A stretch of 62,867 nucleotides of DNA from Candidatus Uhrbacteria bacterium (GCA_016844925.1 JAERTI010000041.1:1-62867), one strand, 5' to 3'; shown: positions 54,410-62,867, numbered from the stretch's first letter. The notes: a model not told the origin generated them from the sequence alone. Numbers and translations: made by a program.

Positions 54410-54498
54410 ATGCACCGAGTATACCAAACAAAACACAGGGCTCGATGCCCTGTGTTTTGTTAACCCCCACCACCCCACCATCCAGCCGTTTCACCACG

Positions 54499-54647
54499 GC
54501 GAACGAGCGCTGGGACAATTTTGAGTCGGACAGTGTCTCTGTAGATCTCAAAATTCGTCCCAGTGATCGGCTCGCCCACTCATAGCAAGACCACACGACC
54601 ACCATCTCAACCCCGCTCAGCGCGGCCATGCAGGCTCGATGAGTATT
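54499..54647. repeat. Structured intergenic repeat, copy 1
   Basis: 102/110 identical to 62739-62848, plus a shared CAGGCTCGATG tail; forms a ~80-nt hairpin. Confidence 0.9.
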
Positions 54648-54697: not shown

Positions 54698-55684
54698 ATG
54701 TCACGTATTCTCACTGCCCTGCAACCATCGGGCATCCTCCACATCGGTAACTACTTTGGAGCCATTGAGCCCATGGTTCGACTCCAAGAAGAAGGGAACG
54801 AAAATATCTTGTTCGCCGTTGATTACCACGCCATCACCGTCCCTCAGGACCCAGGTGATCTTCGCGCCAACCTTTACTATGCCATCGCTACCTACCTGGC
54901 TGCCGGTATCGATCCAGAAAAAACCATCCTCTTCCAACAGTCCCGTGTCCGCGAGCACACTGAACTTGCATGGATCCTCAACTGCATCGCTCACATGGGA
55001 GAGCTTGAGCGCATGACGCAGTTCAAAGATAAAGCCGTTGGCAAAGGAGAAGCTGTAACCGTCGGACTGTTTGATTACCCCGTTCTCATGGCTGCCGACA
55101 TCTTGCTCTACGATACGGAAGTCGTTCCGGTGGGAGAAGATCAAAAACAACACCTGGAGCTTGCACGTGATCTAGCAGAGCGCTTCAACAACCGCTTTGG
55201 TGATACCTTCATCGTGCCAGAGCCACGCATCCGCACTCAGGGGGCTCGCATCATGGGACTAGACGATCCAACCAAGAAGATGAGTAAGTCTGCGAGCTCT
55301 GAGCGCAACTACATCTCCCTCATGGATGATGAAAAGAAAGTGATCAAGAAGATTAAGACAGCGGTGACTGATTCAGAAGGAATCGTGAAAGCCGACCGTG
55401 CTCGTGAAGGTATCTTCAACCTCCTCTCCATCTACTCACTGGTCACCGGACGCCCCGCAAGCGAGATCGAGGTAGATTATGAAGGAAAGGGCTATGGGGA
55501 TTTCAAAAAGGACCTTGCCGGAGAAATCAACACGTTCCTTGCGCCGATCCAAGACAAGATTACCGAGTACCTAGACGACAAACAGCAGCTCATTGAGATC
55601 CTTGATGCCGGCGCTGAGCGCGCGCAGGCATTGGCAGAGGAGAAAATGAAGGTGGTCCGGGATCGCATTGGCGTGACACTTTAA
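54698..55684 (+). CDS. trpS: Tryptophan--tRNA ligase
   Basis: QPSG-x-LHIGNY (HIGH), YPVLMAADILLY, VPVGEDQ-x-QH, KMSKS. Confidence 0.96.
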   Translation: MSRILTALQPSGILHIGNYFGAIEPMVRLQEEGNENILFAVDYHAITVPQDPGDLRANLYYAIATYLAAGIDPEKTILFQQSRVREHTELAWILNCIAHMGELERMTQFKDKAVGKGEAVTVGLFDYPVLMAADILLYDTEVVPVGEDQKQHLELARDLAERFNNRFGDTFIVPEPRIRTQGARIMGLDDPTKKMSKSASSERNYISLMDDEKKVIKKIKTAVTDSEGIVKADRAREGIFNLLSIYSLVTGRPASEIEVDYEGKGYGDFKKDLAGEINTFLAPIQDKITEYLDDKQQLIEILDAGAERAQALAEEKMKVVRDRIGVTL

Positions 55685-55714
55685 ACCCAAAAACAGGGCG
55701 ATGGCCCTGTTTTT
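55678..55714 (+). repeat. 22-bp direct repeat plus terminator at the trpS 3' end (left copy)
   Basis: ACTTTAAACCCAAAAACAGGGC (55678-55699) followed by gatg-GCCCTGTTTTT. Confidence 0.85.
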
Positions 55715-55742
55715 TGACAGAGCAACTTTGAGACCCTATTGT
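55714..55742 (+). promoter_or_regulatory. Sigma70 promoter for the CSLREA gene; -35 overlaps the trpS terminator T-tract
   Basis: TTGACA-17 nt-TATTGT. Confidence 0.6.
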
Positions 55743-55843
55743 AGACTCACAATTAACAACGGATCCTGTGTAGAGCCTTATAGCTTATCCGTTCAACCAT
55801 TACCTAACAGGAAAGGGGTGCTAATCACATTGGCCCTCTTTTT

Positions 55844-58015
55844 ATGTTACTACGCAATACCTTTGCTCGTATCTTCCCCTTGTTTCTAGCAACGATCGTT
55901 GCCCTACTGTTTGCACAACCTGCACACGCAGGAACCATCACCGTCAATACTGTTCTTGATGAACCTCCTAGCAGCATTGGAACACCAAATGGACTTTGTA
56001 CGCTCCGAGAAGCTGTATGGTCTGCGAATAATGACGCGAGCGCAGGTGATTGCGCACCAGGAAGCGGTGCTGACACCATTGTGTTACCCAACCCACTTAC
56101 TGGTGGTGAAGTAACAAATCTCAATCCTGAATACGTCCTGGAATTTCCCGACGCAAGTGCTACTGGTGATAGAGCGCTCACTATTTCAAGTGACGTGACT
56201 ATTCACGCCCCTACTCAGACACTCGTAAAACGATCTACAGCAATAGAAACACCTTTTTTCCGTCTCTTTAACGTAACAAATTCAAGCGACGGTGAGGGGA
56301 ATCCTATTGCATCAACACTTCGTTTAGAAAATCTCACACTCGAAAATGGCCACGTCGAAGGCAGTGTCATTGGCCAAGATCCAACAGATGGTGGAGCCAT
56401 TAAGGTCTACGGAAGCCGACTTGTGCTAATAAACACCCTCATTCAATCAAATACCGCCTCTGGAAGAGGAGGTGCTATTAGCGCATCAAGTGTCGGCATG
56501 CCAGGATCACAATCACACTCATTGATTCATGCCATTGATAGCCGCATTGAAAACAACCAAGCTGGAACTGGAGGAGGTATTTCCATCATGGCTGGCTCAG
56601 AACTCATACTTGATCGATCAAGTGTCTCTTTCAATGATGCCGTTGGTTTTGAATACATCGAAGGTGCCATGGGGACCTCTAATTGGAATGCGGGAGGTGG
56701 AGGCATTCACGTACATTCGAGCGAGATCAGCATAAATGACTCAGCCATCGAAAAGAATTCAGCATATGGTTATTACAATGAAGAACAACCTTCAAGTCAA
56801 CTTGGTGGCGGAGGGGTACACCTGTATAACAGCCGTGCTCACGTATCGAATAGTCGAATCATAAATAACTCAATCAATGGGGACTATCTTGCGTTCGGGG
56901 GCGGTGTCTTTTCTTGGGAAAGTGATGTGCTGTTGGATGAGCAAACCTACATCAGTGGAAACGAATCTATTCGAACAGATGGTCGTGGAGGCGGACTGAC
57001 AGCATTCGACTCAACGCTTAACATCTTTGACTCCATCTTCCTAGCCAATATCTCGCAAGGTAATGCTGGCGGCCTCTATCTAGATGACTCGAGCACCCAC
57101 ATTGAAAACAGCACCATTTCCCACAACGTGGCCATCAAGCAGGGTGGAGGAGTTGGTGCTTTAGGTGGATGGCTATCCATTAACACCAGCCTCCTTCACG
57201 GGAACCAAGGAGAAAATGGTGGAGGGATTTGGCAAACATCCTCAAATGGACTACGTATAGATGACTCCACACTTGTTGGCAACTTCACAACAGGTGATCC
57301 GCACAATCTTGATGGGCTTGGTGGTGGTATCTATGCCGCTGGAGGCACACTCACCCAAATTAACAGGACAACCATCAAAGAGAACATCGCATTCAACGGT
57401 GGAGGAATTCACAGCATAGGAGATCTGCAAGTAGAGGCGAGCACCATTTCTCATAACACAGCCAATGGGGACGGAGGTGGAATTCATACTGACTACGGCC
57501 AACTCATCAACACTACCGTTTCAGAAAACTACGCCAACGAGAATGGTGGAGGGATTTTTGGATCAACTCTCTCTCCATATCGACTCAGAATCTTATCCTC
57601 GACTATTGCAAACAACCATGGACGATACGGTGCAGGAATCTTTGCCCAAAATTCCACAACCCCACAAGTCGTCCTTGCCAATTCCATTGTTGACCAAGGA
57701 CAAACATCCTCCCCAAGTGCTCCAAACTGCTATGGAGATATTGGCTCCGATGGATATAACCTCATCTCCAATAACGTTGGCTGTAACTTCATTGCCACAA
57801 CTGGAGATATTGTCGGAACACCAACCAACCCAATCAGCGCCCTCCTTGGAACACTCACCAATAATGGTGGCCCCACACAAACGCATGCATTAAGCCCGGA
57901 CAGCCCTGCTATAAACGCAGGTGACAACACCCAGTGCCCAACAGAAGACCAACGTGGATTTGCACGAACGTTGAGTGCCACAGACCCATGTGACATTGGA
58001 TCGTACGAACTTTAA
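55844..58015 (+). CDS. Secreted CSLREA-domain/parallel beta-helix (GG-repeat) protein with choice-of-anchor Q-like C-terminus
   Basis: ITVNT-x2-D...CTLREAV-x2-AN; many N-x4-GGG/A-h repeats; L-x-NNGGPTQTHAL-x2-DSPAINAG...C...DQRG-x2-R...CDIGSYE. Confidence 0.88.
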   Translation: MLLRNTFARIFPLFLATIVALLFAQPAHAGTITVNTVLDEPPSSIGTPNGLCTLREAVWSANNDASAGDCAPGSGADTIVLPNPLTGGEVTNLNPEYVLEFPDASATGDRALTISSDVTIHAPTQTLVKRSTAIETPFFRLFNVTNSSDGEGNPIASTLRLENLTLENGHVEGSVIGQDPTDGGAIKVYGSRLVLINTLIQSNTASGRGGAISASSVGMPGSQSHSLIHAIDSRIENNQAGTGGGISIMAGSELILDRSSVSFNDAVGFEYIEGAMGTSNWNAGGGGIHVHSSEISINDSAIEKNSAYGYYNEEQPSSQLGGGGVHLYNSRAHVSNSRIINNSINGDYLAFGGGVFSWESDVLLDEQTYISGNESIRTDGRGGGLTAFDSTLNIFDSIFLANISQGNAGGLYLDDSSTHIENSTISHNVAIKQGGGVGALGGWLSINTSLLHGNQGENGGGIWQTSSNGLRIDDSTLVGNFTTGDPHNLDGLGGGIYAAGGTLTQINRTTIKENIAFNGGGIHSIGDLQVEASTISHNTANGDGGGIHTDYGQLINTTVSENYANENGGGIFGSTLSPYRLRILSSTIANNHGRYGAGIFAQNSTTPQVVLANSIVDQGQTSSPSAPNCYGDIGSDGYNLISNNVGCNFIATTGDIVGTPTNPISALLGTLTNNGGPTQTHALSPDSPAINAGDNTQCPTEDQRGFARTLSATDPCDIGSYEL

Positions 58016-58045
58016 ACCCAAAAACAGGGCCAAAGCCCTGTTTTT
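58009..58045 (+). repeat. 22-bp direct repeat plus terminator (right copy)
   Basis: ACTTTAAACCCAAAAACAGGGC (58009-58030) followed by caaa-GCCCTGTTTTT. Confidence 0.85.
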
Positions 58046-58147
58046 GGATTGACAAAATCCGTATTTTCAGGCAAGGTCGGCCGTTACAACCGCAGGAAAT
58101 AGGCTCATTTAGGGCCCGGTTGTATCCCGCCAGAACAGAGAGGAGTA

Positions 58148-59467
58148 ATGGCACAACCCACATTGGCATGTCTCCAGCTTGATGGAACCATCACGCAGGA
58201 AAGCTGGGATGATGTGCAAGCGAGTGTCCGGCGCATCAAGGCGTTCTTCGCCGCACTGCGCCTGCGCTTCATCGGACGTGACCCACTGATCGACCGGATC
58301 GAGTACGCCATGCTTCGGCGTGGACACGTGCTGACCTACGGAGATGCGGGCACTGGCAAGACCGCCATCACCAAGCAGATCAAGCGTGGCACCGAAGGCA
58401 TGCGCTTGTTCTCCATCGGACTGACCGCCGAGATCACCGAAGACAAGCTCTTCGGTGAGCCGGACTGGGCACACTGGCGCGAGCACCACGAGATGCGCCG
58501 CCAAATCGAGGGTTCCATCCTCGATGCCCACCTGGTGCACCTGGGTGAGTACCTCAACGCCGGTGTTCAGCTCCTGGAGGCTCTCAACGACTTCCTGGAG
58601 GACCGCGACTACCGCCACGGCAAGCAAGTGCTCGAGCACTGCCCGCTGATGACCGCGCTGGCCGACACCAACGTGGACCCCATCAAGGCCATGGAGGAAG
58701 ACGAGAAGCTCATCCCGGTCATCGACCGGTTCATGTTCCTCTTTCCCGTCACCACGCTCACCAAGACCGAGGACCTCAGCCGCATGCTGCGCCTGAACCT
58801 CGGCCGAGAGCGTGCCAAGCCTCTGCCGCCGCTCACCCTCGAGGACCTCGTGCGTGTCAGCGGCGTCAGCCACGGCAGCGACCTGTTCGACGACCCGGTC
58901 ATCGAGCAAGCCTACGTGGAGCTCTACCAGCACTTCAGCGAAGCCACTGGTGAGCGAGTCACCAACCGGACCTTCTGCAAGATCGCAGAGCTGGCCGAGG
59001 TGGAAGCCATGATGCAGGGACGCCAGCGTGTCATGCTGGACGACCTGCGCGTCACGGGCCTCGGGCTCGTGCGCCGCGATGGTGAGCAGGAGGCATTCGA
59101 CGAGGCCATCGCCAAGATTGTCGAAGGCAAGTGGAAGCAACAGGAGCACCGCGCGCGCGTCCGCGCAGAAGAAGAGTTCCTGGACAACGTGGCTCGTCAG
59201 ATTCCCAGCGAGGAAGAGATCGAGGCACAAGCAACCGTTCGGTTCATCAGCATTCTCAAGCAGCTCAAGGACTCCGACGAACTGCTGGACAAGGCCACCA
59301 TGACCTCGCAGCGCAACCGGGATCGTCACGCGCGCCTGCGTGCGGACATCGAGATGCGCAAGCTCGCGCTCTTCGGACGCGCGGACGCTGCCACCGACCC
59401 CAAAAAGGTCGAGGACGACATCTCAGCCCTGCTGCAGGACGAAGACACCGACGAAGAGAGCTCCTGA
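58148..59467 (+). CDS. MoxR/RavA-like AAA+ ATPase with C-terminal helical extension
   Basis: FIGRD-x2-I, Walker A GDAGTGKT, KLFGEP, atypical Walker B LVHLGE, A-x-TN, R-finger DRF; GAGGAG SD. Confidence 0.85.
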   Translation: MAQPTLACLQLDGTITQESWDDVQASVRRIKAFFAALRLRFIGRDPLIDRIEYAMLRRGHVLTYGDAGTGKTAITKQIKRGTEGMRLFSIGLTAEITEDKLFGEPDWAHWREHHEMRRQIEGSILDAHLVHLGEYLNAGVQLLEALNDFLEDRDYRHGKQVLEHCPLMTALADTNVDPIKAMEEDEKLIPVIDRFMFLFPVTTLTKTEDLSRMLRLNLGRERAKPLPPLTLEDLVRVSGVSHGSDLFDDPVIEQAYVELYQHFSEATGERVTNRTFCKIAELAEVEAMMQGRQRVMLDDLRVTGLGLVRRDGEQEAFDEAIAKIVEGKWKQQEHRARVRAEEEFLDNVARQIPSEEEIEAQATVRFISILKQLKDSDELLDKATMTSQRNRDRHARLRADIEMRKLALFGRADAATDPKKVEDDISALLQDEDTDEESS

Positions 59468-60699
59468 TGGATCCGCTCACCCTTGCGGCGCTGATCGCCC
59501 TTGGGGCGAGCGGCGCGATCGGTGGAACAGCCGGAGCCGTTGCGCTCTATCGGGCGATCATCAAGGCAGGTTTCCCCAAGACCACTCCCGCCGGCGAACC
59601 GATCACCTACGAAAGGTTCTCCGTCAAGGAGATGGCCAAGGAGATGGCCCGCCGCGTGGTCATCACCCACACCCTCATCACCGTCGGCAGAGAGCAGACG
59701 GGAAAGAAGGCCGTGGGTGAACGTGTCATTCGCCAAGAAAAGACAGGTGAAAGACAAGTTGACGAGAAGGTGGTGGGGCACCGAATCACTGGCTACCAGA
59801 AGGTAGGCGAGGAGAAAGTAGGTGAAAAACAGGTAGATGAACGCGTGGTTAACCACCGCTGGGAGGAATCCCCGGTGCCAGCAGATCGCGTGCACCTGCG
59901 CCCCATCCGGGGACTGCACGAAGCCCATCGTCGCCCCGCCTCAGAGCTCCTGCTTCCGGACGACATCCAAGAGATGCGCATGATCACCGGTCGTGCCCCC
60001 GTCCTCGTCTTTCAACGCCGCGTCCCCGTCATGGAGCCGGTCATGGAAGACATCATGGAAGACGTGCTCCAGCCGATCACCGAGCCGGTGACCGAACCCA
60101 TCATGGAAGACATCATGGTGGACGTGACTGAGACCATCTGGGAACCCGTCTACGAGCCGATCACCCGCAAGCGCACGCATGGAGTGTACCTGCTCATCGA
60201 CTACTCCAACTCCACGCGCACGTACCTGATGGATACGACGCAAGGTGTCGTCCGAGGGTACCCTTGGCGAGGCAAGCTCAGTGACCAGGCGGCCCAACGG
60301 GTGTTTGAGCGCTGCAAGGAAGAGGGAATCCCCTTCTTCTGCCGCGCCTTCCACCACGAAGCTGAATCGCTTTTCAGCTGGCGACCTGGTGATCCCGAAG
60401 ACGGACTCAAGACGTACTTCCGACGGTGCGACACTGGTGGCACGGACATTGCTCACGCAATCGAGTGCGCCATCCACGATCTGACGGCAGAGGGCCTCGA
60501 CTCGGCGGATCTGATGATCCACACCGACGGCGAGGACCAGAACCTCAGCTCTGCGCTCCGACGACGGCTGGACCAAGTAAACGTGCGCATGCACGTTCAG
60601 CTCTACGGTGTCGAGAACGAGACGCTCCGCCGCCTCGCTCACACCTGGTCGCTCTGCCCGACGGAGAACTACATCTCTCAGGTGGTCACCAACCCCTGA
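59467..60699 (+). CDS. Membrane-anchored vWA-domain protein with repeat stalk (MoxR partner)
   Basis: ATG overlaps the MoxR TGA; N-terminal Gly/Ala-rich TM; MIDAS IDYSNS...GGTDI...TDGED. Confidence 0.85.
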   Translation: MDPLTLAALIALGASGAIGGTAGAVALYRAIIKAGFPKTTPAGEPITYERFSVKEMAKEMARRVVITHTLITVGREQTGKKAVGERVIRQEKTGERQVDEKVVGHRITGYQKVGEEKVGEKQVDERVVNHRWEESPVPADRVHLRPIRGLHEAHRRPASELLLPDDIQEMRMITGRAPVLVFQRRVPVMEPVMEDIMEDVLQPITEPVTEPIMEDIMVDVTETIWEPVYEPITRKRTHGVYLLIDYSNSTRTYLMDTTQGVVRGYPWRGKLSDQAAQRVFERCKEEGIPFFCRAFHHEAESLFSWRPGDPEDGLKTYFRRCDTGGTDIAHAIECAIHDLTAEGLDSADLMIHTDGEDQNLSSALRRRLDQVNVRMHVQLYGVENETLRRLAHTWSLCPTENYISQVVTNP

Positions 60700-60795
60700 G
60701 ACACGCGAGCTCCAAGCTCACCCCACCGGCACGCCCCGGTGGTTTTTTCTTTGCCCAAATCAAAAACCTCGGGAGTCGTATCCCGAGGGGTCGTG

Positions 60796-62076
60796 TCAGC
60801 GCTGGGCGCTGAGGTTCTGCTTGGGCCAGATGGAGCCAGCTCGGTTGTAGTCGACGATCCACTGGTTGCCCACGTTGTAGCGACGAAACTGTCCCACGTC
60901 GGAGGGGTGGTCGGTCCAGGGGCCATTGGCTCCCTCAGGATCGCTCCACTTCACCGTGAGCGTCTGACTCTTGTCGAGCTTCTGGTCACTCCCCCTGGCC
61001 GCCAGAGCTGGCGGCGTAAGGTTGTGATCGCTCCCTCGCGTAGTCTTGCGATCCTTCTCAGGCCAGGTGTCGTACTTGTAGTCGCACCAGTCCTCGTAGA
61101 CCTCGTCGCCACCAGGGTGACAGGCGTCGTGGACGGTCGTGGTGTCCTGACACGTATCCACACAGACCTCTTCCAAGATCTCCGTCTGGGAACCGTCCTC
61201 GTTGTCCTGCCAGTCGCCCGAAGGCACCATGGAACAGTTGCACGGATAGGGCGAACCCACGTTCTCCTCATGCGGATTGCACGTGATGTGCGTGCAGTCG
61301 ACAGTCTCCTTGTGCTTGTTGGTACAGGACTCCGCGTAGGTGCTCATGGGCATGTCGGACTTCCAGTCCGACCCCGTGTGCACCTTGCGCTCCTTGAGCA
61401 CGTGCGTGATCTCCCAGCCGATCGAGTCGACCTGGGCGACGGTCTCGTGCTTGCCGAAGAAGTGAATGCACATCCAGACGATCAGCACGACCGCCAAGAG
61501 GCCTCCACCCCAGACCATGATCTTGGCGAACGGATCGCCATCGACACGGACGGGGCCCGGGTCATCGTAGAGCGGCGCCGGAGCAGGTCGTCGCGAACGC
61601 GTCGACTCAAGTGCCCGGCGAGGGGCAGGTGGTGGTCGCAGCGGAGGCGGCGCAGGTCGCGCAGGCTCCGTTTCCGGCAGCGGACCGTCCGCGTAGTCGC
61701 GTCCATCCATGCCGGCGCCGCAGTTCACACAGCTGCGCAGCGGCTTGCCATCGACGTCGATGACGGTGCTCTCGCCCTCGCAGTACTCGCACGGAACGTT
61801 GGCCCCCTTGGCCGTTCGGTCCAGAGAGTCCTTGTCGGTGATGAGCACGGTCGCGGACGGATCCTGGTACTCCTCCCCCTCTGCCTTGGCCGACTTGGCC
61901 GAGCCGCAGTTGGGACAGTGCGTACGCGTGGCATCGAAGACCTCCTTGGAGATCTCGTCAGCTTGCCACTTCTTGTAGTAGGCACCGATCTCCACGACCG
62001 TGCCACATTGCGCGCAGGGCCATGAAGACCATCTGCGCCTTTTCCCTAGCTGGGTCTTCCCAGTTTTATGAGCCAT
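60796..62076 (-). CDS. Zn-ribbon/Pro-rich/TM/Cys-rich ectodomain membrane protein
   Basis: CAQC, CPNC, CEYC, CVNC; Pro-rich linker; TM IMVWGGGLLAVVLIVWMCIHFF; Cys-rich C-terminal region; GGAGG SD before ATG 62076. Confidence 0.8.
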   Translation of the reverse strand: MAHKTGKTQLGKRRRWSSWPCAQCGTVVEIGAYYKKWQADEISKEVFDATRTHCPNCGSAKSAKAEGEEYQDPSATVLITDKDSLDRTAKGANVPCEYCEGESTVIDVDGKPLRSCVNCGAGMDGRDYADGPLPETEPARPAPPPLRPPPAPRRALESTRSRRPAPAPLYDDPGPVRVDGDPFAKIMVWGGGLLAVVLIVWMCIHFFGKHETVAQVDSIGWEITHVLKERKVHTGSDWKSDMPMSTYAESCTNKHKETVDCTHITCNPHEENVGSPYPCNCSMVPSGDWQDNEDGSQTEILEEVCVDTCQDTTTVHDACHPGGDEVYEDWCDYKYDTWPEKDRKTTRGSDHNLTPPALAARGSDQKLDKSQTLTVKWSDPEGANGPWTDHPSDVGQFRRYNVGNQWIVDYNRAGSIWPKQNLSAQR

Positions 62077-62204: not shown

Positions 62205-62634
62205 GTCTTAGGACTATCGGATGGCTACGTGCTGCTTGCAGTACGAGGAAAGTCCGAACACCCGATGTTCCGTAAGGGGCATCGACAAAGAAAGTTGCTA
62301 ACGGCGACCAGGTATAAGATCAGAGATTCAGGAGCTGGAATACTGCTCCTGAGCATCATGATCAAAGCCTAGGGAAAGTGCCACAGAGACAATACTAGCC
62401 CGGCTTGCCGGGTGAAACGTGAAAAGTGATGTGATGTTACTCGATCAGTCGGTCGAGCTGGCTACACATCTCGCCCCGTGGCGACACGGTGGCGTGGTAA
62501 ACCCTTTCTGGTGTAAGAGCAAATTTGGTAGCTCGCACGACCCAGCCAGCAATGGTTGGGCTAGATAAATTGCCATCTCCCCGAGGTAGTCGCCCCGGGC
62601 AGACAAAATTCGGCTTACAGATAGCTCCTAAGAC
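62205..62634 (+). ncRNA. rnpB: RNase P RNA
   Basis: GAGGAAAGTCC and ACAAAATTCGGCTTAC (P4), GAAAGTGCCACAGA, GGTAAACC, P1 GTCTTAGGACTATC/GATAGCTCCTAAGAC. Confidence 0.95.
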
Positions 62635-62705: not shown

Positions 62706-62738
62706 ACCATCTCCCCACCTCCCCCGCGGCCTACACCA

Positions 62739-62867
62739 GCGAACGAGCGCTGGGACAATTTTGAGTCGGATAGTGTCCCTATAGATCTCAAAATTCGTAC
62801 CAGTGATCGGCTCGCCCCATCATAGCGAGACCACACAACCACCATCTCGACAGGCTCGATGTGTATT
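62739..62867. repeat. Structured intergenic repeat, copy 2 (reaches the window end)
   Basis: Near-identical to 54499-54647. Confidence 0.9.

What the first reader, a model, noticed from the sequence alone, without database searches (positions are those of the whole stretch)
58148..62076. GC-rich three-gene MoxR / membrane vWA / Zn-ribbon membrane protein module: candidate undescribed envelope or conflict system
Seen: between trpS-CSLREA and rnpB, a translationally coupled MoxR-vWA pair (TGA/ATG overlap) converges on a bitopic protein with two Zn ribbons, a Pro-rich linker and a Cys-rich ectodomain. All three are more GC-rich than most of the window (spot count 63%); the MoxR and Zn-ribbon genes have strong SD sites. 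Established: MoxR AAA+ ATPases act with vWA partners as chaperones or remodellers (RavA-ViaA type), and some MoxR-vWA systems are proposed conflict systems. Unusual here: the vWA has its own TM anchor and a repeat stalk, and the ATPase Walker B reads LVHLGE instead of hhhhDE. Inference: a membrane-tethered remodelling machine whose client or sensor may be the Zn-ribbon protein.
Basis: partly seen in the sequence, partly recalled or inferred. Interest (0 to 1): 0.7.

Follow-up and report, generated by a model that had tools for sequence, protein, structure and literature searches.

The report
Membrane-tethered MoxR-vWA pair, unrelated neighbour
An uncultured CPR (Uhrbacteria-like) bacterium carries a conserved two-gene unit, an AAA+ ATPase plus a membrane-anchored metal-site adaptor (vWA), in which a key catalytic aspartate of the ATPase seems to have moved to the neighbouring strand; the zinc-ribbon membrane gene beside it is a separate cassette, not a third component.

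Summary

- **The pair.** A MoxR-type ATPase gene (58148-59467) overlaps a vWA gene (59467-60699) by one base.
- **The third gene.** They converge on a gene for a bitopic protein with two zinc ribbons and a Cys-rich ectodomain (60796-62076).
- **Composition.** All three genes are GC3-rich.
- **Walker B.** It reads GE instead of DE.

The "three-gene module" does not hold.

- The ATPase-vWA pair, always with the 1-nt overlap, recurs down to about 30% identity in lineages that lack the zinc-ribbon gene.
- The zinc-ribbon family occurs in at least 12 other contexts without the pair. One is a close relative where the pair is replaced by an unrelated gene.
- Co-occurrence is limited to one narrow set of orthologous trpS-rnpB loci.
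- The two units are separate terminator-bounded cassettes, and relatives carry 3.5 kb of other cassettes between them.
- High GC3 marks this clade's flexible gene slots in general.

The ATPase scores as Pfam bpMoxR. However, the vWA has no beta-propeller, and no PADLOC defence model or RavA match applies.

New here: Walker B D-to-G co-varies with gain of Asp or Asn two residues before the sensor-1 Asn, across a clade of about 40 clusters. One well-placed nested reversal changes both sites. I read this as an active ATPase with a relocated acidic residue.

The biological role is unknown. This is a new variant of a known kind.

The parts
58009..58048 (+). Terminator after the CSLREA/choice-of-anchor-Q gene. 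It is a 90% copy of the trpS terminator at 55678-55717 and marks the left edge of the MoxR-vWA cassette.
   Evidence: Direct repeat D3 and inverted repeat I1. Relatives have trpS followed directly by MoxR.
58148..59467 (+). MoxR-clade AAA+ ATPase (439 aa) of Pfam family bpMoxR. It has a C-terminal helical extension and an acidic tail.
   Evidence: PF20030 at 73.1 bits against a cut-off of 27. RavA alignment. Orthologs at 91, 67, 52 and 31% identity.
58340..58363 (+). Walker A motif GDAGTGKT (residues 65-72).
   Evidence: G65, G68, G70 and K71 are invariant in A1. Aligned to RavA.
58532..58549 (+). Walker B motif LVHLGE (residues 129-134). Gly replaces the canonical Asp; the catalytic Glu is kept.
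   Evidence: Aligned to RavA IVFLDE. GE is found in 40 of the 154 aligned family sequences (the six query-alignment proteins plus the listed representatives).
58661..58672 (+). Sensor-1 strand ADTN (residues 172-175). D173 co-varies with the loss of the Walker B Asp.
   Evidence: The 95 DE sequences have no D or N at position 173. Of 40 GE sequences, 36 have D or N there. The tree shows a nested double reversal.
59467..60699 (+). Membrane-anchored vWA protein (410 aa). Its start codon overlaps the MoxR stop codon by 1 nt.
   Evidence: The profile hits the CLCA1 and BatA/B VWA domains. Foldseek gives probability 1.0 for VWA/MIDAS domains, including NorD of NorQD.
59476..59550 (+). N-terminal TM anchor (residues 4-28). 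Positive charges follow it, so the predicted topology is N-out, C-in, with the vWA in the cytoplasm.
   Evidence: Sequence. The L020 homolog has RRYRLFRAR after its helix. The AF2 model shows helices 3-34. The topology is inferred from the positive-inside rule.
59683..59862 (+). Repeat array 1: about 12 pentapeptides (residues 73-132). It is modelled as one strand of a long beta-ribbon.
   Evidence: AF2 strand E70-137, pLDDT about 80. Its length is conserved in orthologs.
59863..60030 (+). Conserved non-repetitive segment (residues 133-188; HLRPIRGLHE...LLLPDD...). It is the part best conserved to the distant L020 homolog and is a candidate MoxR-docking element.
   Evidence: 38% identity with no gaps to L020, against 32% for the vWA domain. 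Low pLDDT in the model. The docking role is inferred.
60031..60162 (+). Repeat array 2: acidic tetrapeptides (residues 189-232, net charge -13). It is modelled as the return strand of the beta-ribbon and is absent from the L020 homolog.
60178..60678 (+). vWA domain with an intact MIDAS: D245-x-S247-x-S249 (60199-60213), T326 and D354.
   Evidence: Invariant columns. Alignment to the CLCA1 VWA. Fold match.
60723..60742 (+). Intrinsic terminator of the MoxR-vWA unit. The same sequence recurs after cassette genes in relatives.
   Evidence: 97% copy at L012 11394-11428.
60767..60788 (-). Intrinsic terminator of the Zn-ribbon gene, which is a separate transcription unit.
60796..62076 (-). Independent neighbour cassette: a bitopic protein with two cytoplasmic Zn ribbons (61906-62016 and 61720-61791), a Pro-rich linker, a TM helix (61456-61524) and a Cys-rich beta-rich ectodomain (60799-61455).
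   Evidence: AF2 model at pLDDT 62. No family or fold match.
62209..62634 (+). rnpB (RNase P RNA, class A), the right border of the variable slot.
   Evidence: RF00010 at 152 bits. It is conserved beside the Zn-ribbon gene in the relatives L001-3, L011-14, L021 and L034/35.

Best explanation
The functional unit is two genes, not three.

**The ATPase.** It is a bpMoxR-family AAA+ ATPase. It is most likely catalytically active even though Walker B reads GE. The Mg2+-coordinating aspartate appears to have been relocated to D173 on the adjacent sensor-1 strand.

**The partner.** It is made in fixed proportion with a vWA partner through a 1-nt stop/start overlap. The vWA is tethered to the cytoplasmic face of the membrane by an N-terminal anchor. 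It carries an intact MIDAS site and a conserved pre-vWA segment. In this lineage that segment sits between two repeat arrays that are modelled as a long beta-ribbon.

**Proposed mechanism.** By analogy with NorQ-NorD, CbbQ-CbbO, RavA-ViaA and midasin, the vWA recruits a MoxR hexamer to the membrane. Its MIDAS captures an acidic peptide of a still unidentified client. ATP hydrolysis then remodels or releases that client.

**Setting.** The pair is one cassette in a GC3-rich, fast-evolving, terminator-delimited variable slot between trpS and rnpB. The Zn-ribbon membrane protein is a neighbouring, independently transcribed cassette.

**Shown:**
- gene structure and family membership;
- vWA fold and MIDAS;
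- conservation of the pair, and independence of the Zn-ribbon gene;
- the Walker B / position-173 covariation.

**Inferred:**
- topology, ATPase activity and hexamer recruitment;
- the docking role of the conserved segment;
- the client and the biological role (conflict or envelope function is favoured over housekeeping, but weakly).
For: **The pair is conserved.**
- The 1-nt overlap is present in every lineage seen: L012, L005, L007, L032, L033, L036 and the distant L020 (31% and 28% identity).
- Family: PF20030 at 73 bits.
- vWA: profile hits, invariant MIDAS, Foldseek probability 1.0 including NorD and the MDN1 MIDAS.

**Catalytic residues.**
- Walker A Lys, Walker B Glu, sensor-1 Asn, Arg finger and sensor-2 Arg are conserved.
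- With D at position 133, position 173 is T, A, S, C or V in 95 of 95 sequences.
- With G at position 133, position 173 is D or N in 36 of 40 sequences.
- A 40-row clade (support 93) contains the GE and NE rows. P0029 is a nested reversal that changes both sites (DE with C173). P0043 also reads DE with T173, but sits on a long branch.
- dN/dS is 0.17-0.26.

**The Zn-ribbon gene is independent.**
- tblastn census of loci.
- There is no homology between the Zn-ribbon family and the third genes of other lineages.
- Separate terminators, with a cassette insert exactly between them in relatives.
- Between L005 and L001 the Zn-ribbon gene has dN/dS 0.10, although L001 has lost the pair.
Against: - No biochemical or expression data exist; only DNA metagenome runs hold the sequence.
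- No client has been identified.
- Four GE sequences outside the clade have no D or N at position 173, so the coupling is not absolute.
- In three related lineages (window/L011-14, L005/6/15, L034/35) the Zn-ribbon gene does sit next to the pair. A lineage-specific functional link therefore cannot be excluded.
- The beta-ribbon rests on an AF2 model from only 9 sequences.
I could not test for other copies in the genome, nor survey genomes of relatives.
Confidence: 0.6

Rival explanations
1. One reading: a three-gene MoxR / vWA / Zn-ribbon machine. The bitopic Zn-ribbon protein would be the client or transmembrane sensor of the membrane-tethered remodeller.
For: - The genes are adjacent in the window and in three related lineages.
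- Both proteins are membrane-associated, and the Zn ribbons are predicted to lie on the same (cytoplasmic) side as the vWA.
- All three genes evolve at similar, fast rates.
Against: - The pair occurs without the Zn-ribbon gene (L007-10/16, L033, L020).
- The Zn-ribbon gene occurs without the pair (L001-3, L021, L004, L022-29, L030).
- The genes are convergent, with two separate terminators.
- Relatives carry a 3.5-kb insert of other cassettes between them.
- All co-occurrences lie at one orthologous locus, so there has been no independent re-association.
Confidence: 0.1
2. The pair is a housekeeping maturation chaperone in the style of NorQD, CoxDE, CbbQO or the Bat aerotolerance operon. It would act on a membrane or redox enzyme (cofactor insertion or oxidative-stress tolerance), not in conflict or envelope sensing.
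For: - All experimentally characterised MoxR-vWA pairs of this architecture are assembly chaperones (PMC7159879, section 8).
- NorD and BatA-like VWA domains are among the best fold matches.
- In L020 the distant pair directly follows Fe/Mn-SOD and AhpC on the same strand.
Against: - No client enzyme gene is linked in the CPR loci.
- The pair is dispensable: it is replaced by an unrelated gene in L001-3.
- It sits in a variable cassette slot that also holds SLOG/LSDAT genes.
- Its dN is about 15 times that of trpS.
- The nearest Pfam family is the conflict-associated bpMoxR.
- The SOD-AhpC linkage is a single observation.
Confidence: 0.2
3. The GE Walker B marks an ATPase-dead pseudo-enzyme. 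The MoxR would bind nucleotide but act only as a static scaffold or slow switch for the vWA.
For: - The canonical Mg2+-coordinating Asp is absent.
- Uncompensated GE variants exist elsewhere in the family.
Against: - All other catalytic residues are retained over deep divergence.
- The D/N173 gain is tightly coupled, and P0029 reverses both sites together.
Confidence: 0.15
4. The three genes are one recently imported foreign island from a GC-rich donor, which would explain their shared composition.
For: - GC3 is 0.75-0.82 against 0.4-0.6 in the flanks.
- Distant homologs lie on contigs of 62% GC.
Against: - The same genes sit at the same locus and are GC3-rich in relatives down to 52% protein identity. 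Their dS values (0.22-0.29) are comparable to that of trpS (0.41) in the closest pair.
- There is no integrase.
- Every other gene in the slot is also GC3-rich.
- Earlier unchecked notes on this genome describe the same genome-wide pattern.
Confidence: 0.05

Closest known systems
Beta-propeller-containing MoxR-vWA ternary systems (Kaur, Burroughs, Iyer & Aravind 2020, eLife, PMC7159879; Pfam PF20030 bpMoxR)
   Same: - The ATPase scores well above the bpMoxR gathering threshold.
- It is paired with a vWA gene.
- It acts close to the membrane.
- It sits in a variable, fast-evolving neighbourhood.
   Different: - In those systems the vWA strictly carries a C-terminal beta-propeller of about four blades. 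A third protein has TPR and beta-propeller regions.
- Here the vWA domain ends the protein, and no such third gene exists.
- The reported host phyla were Bacteroidetes, Planctomycetes, Verrucomicrobia and Proteobacteria, not CPR.
- The paper sections I read do not mention a GE Walker B.
NorQ-NorD, CbbQ-CbbO, CoxD-CoxE and RavA-ViaA chaperone pairs
   Same: - A two-gene MoxR AAA+ and MIDAS-vWA architecture.
- The NorD VWA is a top fold match.
- The likely mechanism is MIDAS capture of an acidic peptide, followed by ATP-driven remodelling.
   Different: - There is no linked client enzyme.
- RavA equivalog membership fails (26 against 681 bits).
- The vWA has its own TM anchor and repeat stalk.
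- Walker B is GE.
- The pair is dispensable between close relatives.
Esr threat-sensing pathway of oral Actinobacteria (bioRxiv 2026, PMC13622651)
   Same: A MoxR and a vWA protein act as a relay at the membrane in a biological-conflict setting. That setting involves Patescibacteria, though on the host side.
   Different: - Esr also has surface beta-propeller sensors, a Ser/Thr kinase with phosphatase, and FHA outputs. None of these is linked here.
- Here the pair is encoded by the CPR bacterium itself.
Bat (Bacteroides aerotolerance) operon: MoxR-DUF58-BatA-BatB
   Same: - A MoxR sits with N-terminally TM-anchored VWA proteins.
- BatA/B-type VWA structures match the profile and the fold.
- The distant homolog in L020 lies next to SOD and AhpC.
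   Different: - There is no DUF58 gene, no second vWA and no TPR genes.
- The canonical MoxR genes found in L017-19 have a DE Walker B and are not close relatives.

Membership tests
MoxR clade of AAA+ ATPases | Walker A GxxGxGK[ST] | tested here: met
   GDAGTGKT at residues 65-72. Its G65, G68, G70 and K71 are invariant in homologs.
MoxR clade of AAA+ ATPases | Walker B hhhhDE | tested here: not met
   LVHLGE aligns to RavA IVFLDE. GE is shared by a clade of about 40 clusters, which has a co-varying D or N at position 173.
MoxR clade of AAA+ ATPases | Sensor-1 Asn, Arg finger and sensor-2 Arg | tested here: met
   N175, R194 and R274 are invariant in A1 and align to RavA.
MoxR clade of AAA+ ATPases | Adjacent vWA co-chaperone gene | tested here: met
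   1-nt overlap with a MIDAS-vWA gene in all lineages.
Pfam PF20030 bpMoxR | HMM score above the gathering threshold | tested here: met
   73.1 bits against 27, covering residues 29-217.
Beta-propeller MoxR-vWA ternary system (Kaur et al. 2020) | The vWA component strictly carries a C-terminal beta-propeller of about 4 blades | tested here: not met
   The vWA domain spans residues 238-404 of 410. Neither the AF2 model nor Pfam shows a propeller.
Beta-propeller MoxR-vWA ternary system (Kaur et al. 2020) | [quoted passage not shown] | tested here: not met
   The neighbouring genes give no TPR or propeller hit. The neighbour differs between lineages.
VMAP, iSTAND and FtsH MoxR-vWA ternary systems | A VMAP, inactive STAND or double-FtsH third gene | tested here: not met
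   No such domain was found in the window genes or in neighbours in related loci. P0001 has only a weak sub-threshold nSTAND6 hit over its P-loop.
RavA-ViaA | NCBIfam RavA equivalog score | tested here: not met
   NF010054 at 26.1 bits against a cut-off of 681. RavA is only a remote PDB match at 2.6e-07.
vWA / MIDAS domain | DxSxS...T...D metal site and Rossmann-like VWA fold | tested here: met
   D245, S247, S249, T326 and D354 are invariant. Profile against the CLCA1 VWA gives 5e-05. Foldseek probability 1.0. The single-sequence Pfam hit VWA_CoxE is below threshold (19.6 against 26.4).
Known anti-phage defence systems (PADLOC-DB 2.0) | Any of the three proteins matches a defence-system model | tested here: not met
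   No hits at E<=1.
Bat aerotolerance operon | MoxR followed by DUF58 and two TM-vWA genes (BatA/BatB) | tested here: not met
   There is no DUF58 gene and no second vWA gene in the window or its relatives.

The most novel reading that the evidence does not exclude
The GE/xDTN clade (about 40 clusters at 50% identity) would be a distinct class of active AAA+ ATPases. In it, the Mg2+-coordinating Walker B aspartate has migrated from strand 3 to the sensor-1 strand. Together with its TM-tethered MIDAS-vWA partner it would form a self-contained two-component switch at the membrane, with no third component. In the CPR lineage the ATPase would engage the conserved segment at the tip of a roughly 20-nm beta-ribbon. 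It would mechanically unzip that ribbon to move or release the vWA-bound client. Such a device could serve episymbiont-host or phage conflict.
Probability: 0.15. Interest if true: 0.7.

Novelty: new variant of a known kind. Interest (0 to 1): 0.42.

Why it matters
- **A resolved claim.** A proposed three-gene 'system' becomes a conserved two-gene unit plus an unrelated neighbour. This stops a false system from entering catalogues.
- **An enzymological signature.** MoxR ATPases show a clean, testable pattern. Loss of the Walker B Asp is coupled to gain of an Asp or Asn on the sensor-1 strand, and one well-placed nested reversal changes both sites. If this is functional, it is an example of catalytic-residue migration in AAA+ enzymes. 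It would also give a simple sequence rule for telling active 'GE' MoxRs from dead ones.
- **A minimal bpMoxR form in CPR bacteria.** This conflict-associated family was described in large multicellular-type bacteria. Here a minimal, propeller-less, membrane-tethered form is found in CPR bacteria with reduced genomes.
- **Support for the cassette picture.** The trpS-rnpB slot with its repeated terminators adds another example to the emerging picture of GC3-rich cassette compartments in Uhrbacteria.

Tried and rejected
I could make no own-genome copy count and no survey of relatives.
- **PADLOC** gave nothing for any of the three proteins.
- **PHROGs** gave only a generic ATPase family and a compositional repeat hit.
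- **Zn-ribbon protein.**
  - No Pfam or NCBIfam family.
  - No PDB sequence match, single or profile.
  - The AF2 model is only pLDDT 62, with no Foldseek hit at E<=0.001. The pore-toxin-like hits reflect long hairpins only and were rejected.
  - No match in the phage GenBank collection.
- **MoxR in IMG/VR:** none found.
- **GTDB genome scan with the MoxR profile.** It found only two CPR genomes, plus three canonical DE-type MoxR operons (Myxococcaceae, Archangium, Rickettsiales). I rejected those three as non-members.
- **Remote homology test.** hhalign compared the Zn-ribbon family with the third genes of other lineages (L007 394 aa, L020 267 aa). The result was negative.
- **Plasmid relatives** at 25-29% identity show AAA-x-VWA arrangements in accessory regions, but they are too distant to inform this clade.
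- **Sequencing runs:** only DNA metagenomes (marine/seawater) hold the region, so there is no expression evidence.
- **A recently imported foreign island** was rejected as the explanation of the GC content.

Full report
**1. What is in the sequence**

Three genes lie at the stated coordinates.
- A 439-aa AAA+ protein, 58148-59467 (+).
- A 410-aa protein, 59467-60699 (+). Its ATG overlaps the upstream TGA by one base (TGATG).
- A convergent 426-aa protein, 60796-62076 (-).

The flanks are as described.
- trpS is upstream (TIGR00233, 343 bits).
- Next comes a large secreted repeat protein. It has a clear choice-of-anchor Q domain and only a sub-threshold CSLREA hit.
- rnpB is downstream (RF00010, 152 bits).

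The block is compositionally distinct.
- GC is 0.605-0.635, against about 0.40-0.57 elsewhere.
- GC3 is 0.75-0.82, against 0.40-0.60 for the neighbouring genes.

Strong Shine-Dalgarno sites precede the first and third genes. Two opposed intrinsic terminators lie in the 96-nt gap between the convergent genes. The two units are therefore transcribed separately.

**2. The ATPase**

P0001 scores 73 bits on Pfam PF20030 (bpMoxR; cut-off 27). This family was defined from the MoxR-vWA-beta-propeller ternary conflict systems (PMC7159879).
- It is not a RavA ortholog: NF010054 scores 26 bits against 681.
- Nothing in PADLOC matches any of the three proteins.
- The alignment to RavA structures puts LVHLGE opposite IVFLDE.
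- Walker A, the Walker B Glu, the sensor-1 Asn, the Arg finger and the sensor-2 Arg are all present. They are invariant in homologs down to 31% identity.

**3. Walker B GE is a clade signature with a coupled second change**

A profile search of 1.84 billion cluster representatives gave 266 proteins at E<=1e-30 and 5771 at E<=1e-3. I aligned 154 sequences: the six proteins of the query alignment plus the listed representatives.

| Walker B | Sequences | Residue at position 173 |
|---|---|---|
| DE | 95 | T, A, S, C or V in all 95; never D or N |
| GE | 40 | D in 29, N in 7, S in 3, T in 1 |
| EE | 10 | T in all 10 |
| NE | 7 | D in 2, T in 4, V in 1 |

(Counts.) Position 173 lies two residues before the sensor-1 Asn.

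A FastTree of 149 sequences shows the following.
- 36 of the GE rows and two NE rows fall in one 40-row clade (support 93).
- Every G or N row in that clade has D or N at position 173.
- P0029 is nested within a well-supported GE/D173 sub-clade. It has reverted to DE and at the same time carries C at position 173. P0043 does the same, but sits on a long branch.
- Outside the clade, four GE sequences have no compensating D or N.

In AAA+ folds the sensor-1 strand (beta-4) lies next to the Walker B strand (beta-3). This is established knowledge of the fold. My inference is that the Mg2+-coordinating carboxylate has been relocated and the enzyme remains active. I did not model the geometry, because the structure jobs were exhausted.

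**4. The vWA partner**

A single-sequence Pfam search gives only a sub-threshold VWA_CoxE hit. Stronger evidence comes from other tests.
- A 9-sequence profile hits the CLCA1 VWA (5e-05) and the BatA/BatB VWA domains.
- MIDAS residues D245, S247, S249, T326 and D354 are invariant.
- The AF2 model (pLDDT 75.6) matches VWA/MIDAS domains with Foldseek probability 1.0. The matches include the MDN1 MIDAS and NorD of the NorQD complex.

Topology is inferred. The N-terminus is a hydrophobic helix followed by positive charges. The L020 homolog has even more of them (RRYRLFRAR). By the positive-inside rule this predicts N-out, C-in, which puts the vWA in the cytoplasm with the MoxR.

Two repeat arrays lie between the anchor and the vWA. 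The AF2 model pairs them as two strands of about 60 residues each, forming a beta-ribbon (E70-137 and E180-235). They flank a non-repetitive segment, residues 133-188.
- That segment is the part best conserved to the distant L020 homolog: 38% identity with no gaps, against 32% for the vWA domain.
- The acidic second array is missing in L020.
- The ribbon is therefore lineage-specific. The TM anchor, the conserved segment and the vWA are the conserved modules.
- I propose, as inference only, that the conserved segment is the element that MoxR engages.

**5. Is the Zn-ribbon gene part of the system?**

Homolog searches found very few relatives of each protein among 5.8 billion clusters. I inspected their contigs. 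I also ran a GTDB scan, a metagenome scan and viral scans. A tblastn census of all loci followed.

| Lineage | MoxR-vWA pair | Zn-ribbon gene | Notes |
|---|---|---|---|
| Window | yes | yes | adjacent |
| L011-14 (91-93% identity) | yes | yes | 3.5 kb of other genes in between |
| L005/6/15 (about 65%) | yes | yes | adjacent |
| L034/35 | vWA seen; the contig ends inside it | yes | one small TM gene in between |
| L007-10/L016/L036 (Uhrbacteria, about 52%) | yes | no | unrelated 394-aa membrane protein plus a 183-aa protein instead |
| L033 | yes | no | small ORFs downstream |
| L020 (31% and 28%) | yes | no | SOD and AhpC upstream, a secreted 267-aa protein downstream |
| L001-3 | no | yes | same trpS-rnpB locus; an unrelated 230-aa gene replaces the pair |
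| L021 | no | yes | beside rnpB |
| L004, L022-29 | no | yes | various other contexts |
| L030 (187-kb IMG/VR contig) | no | yes | next to a protein that reads like a dCMP deaminase |

Further points bear on the question.
- The 394-aa and 267-aa third genes show no homology to the Zn-ribbon family.
- Every co-occurrence is at the orthologous trpS-rnpB locus of one narrow lineage. Shared ancestry explains them, and no independent re-association is seen.
- Between L005 and L001 the Zn-ribbon gene is 92% identical with dN/dS 0.10, even though L001 lacks the pair. It therefore functions without the pair.
- Its adjacency to rnpB is actually more conserved than its adjacency to the vWA gene.

**6. 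The slot**

- In the closest relatives the extra 3.5 kb sits exactly between the two terminators. The vWA terminator sequence recurs after the inserted genes.
- That insert encodes two SLOG/LSDAT_prok proteins and several small ORFans, some of which look hydrophobic.
- In the window itself the CSLREA/choice-of-anchor-Q gene is an insertion. It is bounded by a 40-nt duplication of the trpS terminator and is absent from the relatives.
- Every gene in the slot is GC3-rich in every relative.
- Synonymous divergence of the three genes between the window and L012 (0.22-0.29) is of the same order as that of trpS (0.41). Their dN is about 15 times higher.
- Earlier unchecked notes of this scan describe the same genome-wide pattern of GC3-rich flexible slots with repeated terminators in this Uhrbacteria genome. 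My data for this locus agree.

Shared GC-richness is therefore a property of the compartment, not evidence of one module. It does not indicate recent import either.

**7. Mechanism and role**

The best-supported reading is a two-gene, membrane-tethered MoxR-vWA remodelling unit. Its working would follow the common denominator of characterised pairs (PMC7159879, section 8). The MIDAS captures a peptide, and ATP-driven conformational change in the hexameric ATPase remodels or releases the client.

The client is unknown, and the evidence on role points both ways.
- For a conflict or envelope role:
  - the pair is dispensable between close relatives;
  - it evolves fast;
  - it shares a slot with SLOG-domain cassettes;
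  - its nearest Pfam family is conflict-associated.
- For a housekeeping role: the SOD-AhpC linkage in L020 and the NorD and BatA fold matches keep a chaperone reading alive.

A recent preprint shows MoxR and vWA proteins acting as a relay in threat sensing in Actinobacteria (PMC13622651). That pathway has kinase, FHA and propeller parts that are absent here.

**8. Comparison and novelty**

By sequence the ATPase is a member of bpMoxR. As a system it fails the defining features of the beta-propeller ternary systems: there is no propeller on the vWA and no TPR/propeller third protein. It also fails those of the VMAP, iSTAND and FtsH systems, of RavA-ViaA and of the Bat operon.

It is best called a new variant of a known kind: a minimal, propeller-less, TM-tethered bpMoxR-vWA pair with a relocated Walker B acid, found in CPR bacteria.

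I found no paper that mentions bpMoxR by name. Apart from the host-side Esr study and one paper that only mentions both words, none links MoxR with Patescibacteria.

**9. Limits**

- The genomic contexts of the GE-clade representatives could not be fetched.
- No RNA data exist for this organism.
- The Zn-ribbon ectodomain remains without any family or fold assignment.

Noticed in passing
window 54467-54611 and 62707-62851: A direct repeat of about 145 nt (84-91% identical) brackets the whole trpS...rnpB segment. One copy is upstream of trpS and the other is downstream of rnpB. Both copies are kept at the same two places in relatives L011-14, and about 64 nt of it in L001-3 and L005. Its function is unknown; it could be a shared promoter or leader, or a structured element.
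   Followed up: partly
window 55678-58048: The CSLREA/choice-of-anchor-Q surface protein gene is a lineage-specific insertion. It is bounded by a 40-nt duplication of the trpS stop codon and terminator (55678-55717 and 58009-58048, 90% identical). In relatives trpS is followed directly by the MoxR gene.
   Followed up: partly
L011/L012 10609-14149: A 3.5-kb insert sits exactly between the vWA and Zn-ribbon terminators in the closest relatives. It encodes three small proteins (111, 99 and 147 aa), two paralogous SLOG/LSDAT_prok proteins and a 101-aa Cys-containing protein. The vWA terminator sequence recurs after the cassette genes.
   Followed up: partly
L012 13821-14126 and L021 1692-2000: A Cys-containing protein of about 101 aa (37% identity, E=2.6e-18) is the convergent neighbour of the Zn-ribbon gene in two separate lineages. 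It is a better candidate partner for the Zn-ribbon protein than the MoxR-vWA pair. It is absent from the window.
   Followed up: no
L030 5968-7173 (IMG/VR contig of 187 kb): A protein of the Zn-ribbon family (two Zn ribbons, TM, Cys-rich ectodomain; 26% identity) is encoded on a GC-rich putative jumbo-phage contig. Its neighbour reads like a dCMP deaminase. A weaker hit lies on a 393-kb contig, L031.
   Followed up: partly
L004 6678-7424 and 8001-9233: The distant Zn-ribbon homolog has a paralog about 0.6 kb upstream on the same strand that consists of the ectodomain only (27% identity over 216 residues). The Cys-rich ectodomain is therefore an independently duplicating module.
   Followed up: no
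L001 9443-10135: In a close relative (Zn-ribbon protein 92% identical to that of L005), the MoxR-vWA pair is replaced at the same site by an unrelated, family-less, GC3-rich 230-aa gene.
   Followed up: partly
L020 137-4910: The most distant pair of the clade (31% and 28% identity) follows Fe/Mn superoxide dismutase and AhpC on the same strand. A secreted 267-aa protein follows it. This hints at an oxidative-stress link, but it is a single observation.
   Followed up: no
window 59683-60162 (vWA residues 73-232): AF2 pairs the basic pentapeptide array and the acidic tetrapeptide array into a two-stranded beta-ribbon of about 60 residues, with pLDDT about 80. The array lengths are conserved among the CPR orthologs, but the acidic array is absent from the L020 homolog.
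   Followed up: partly
L007 10695-12466 and L005 13355-13918: A conserved 183-187-aa N-terminally anchored protein (72% identical between lineages, GC3 0.85) sits next to rnpB in the Uhrbacteria and Parcubacteria relatives. In L007 it pairs with an unrelated 394-aa two-TM protein. Neither has a Pfam family.
   Followed up: no
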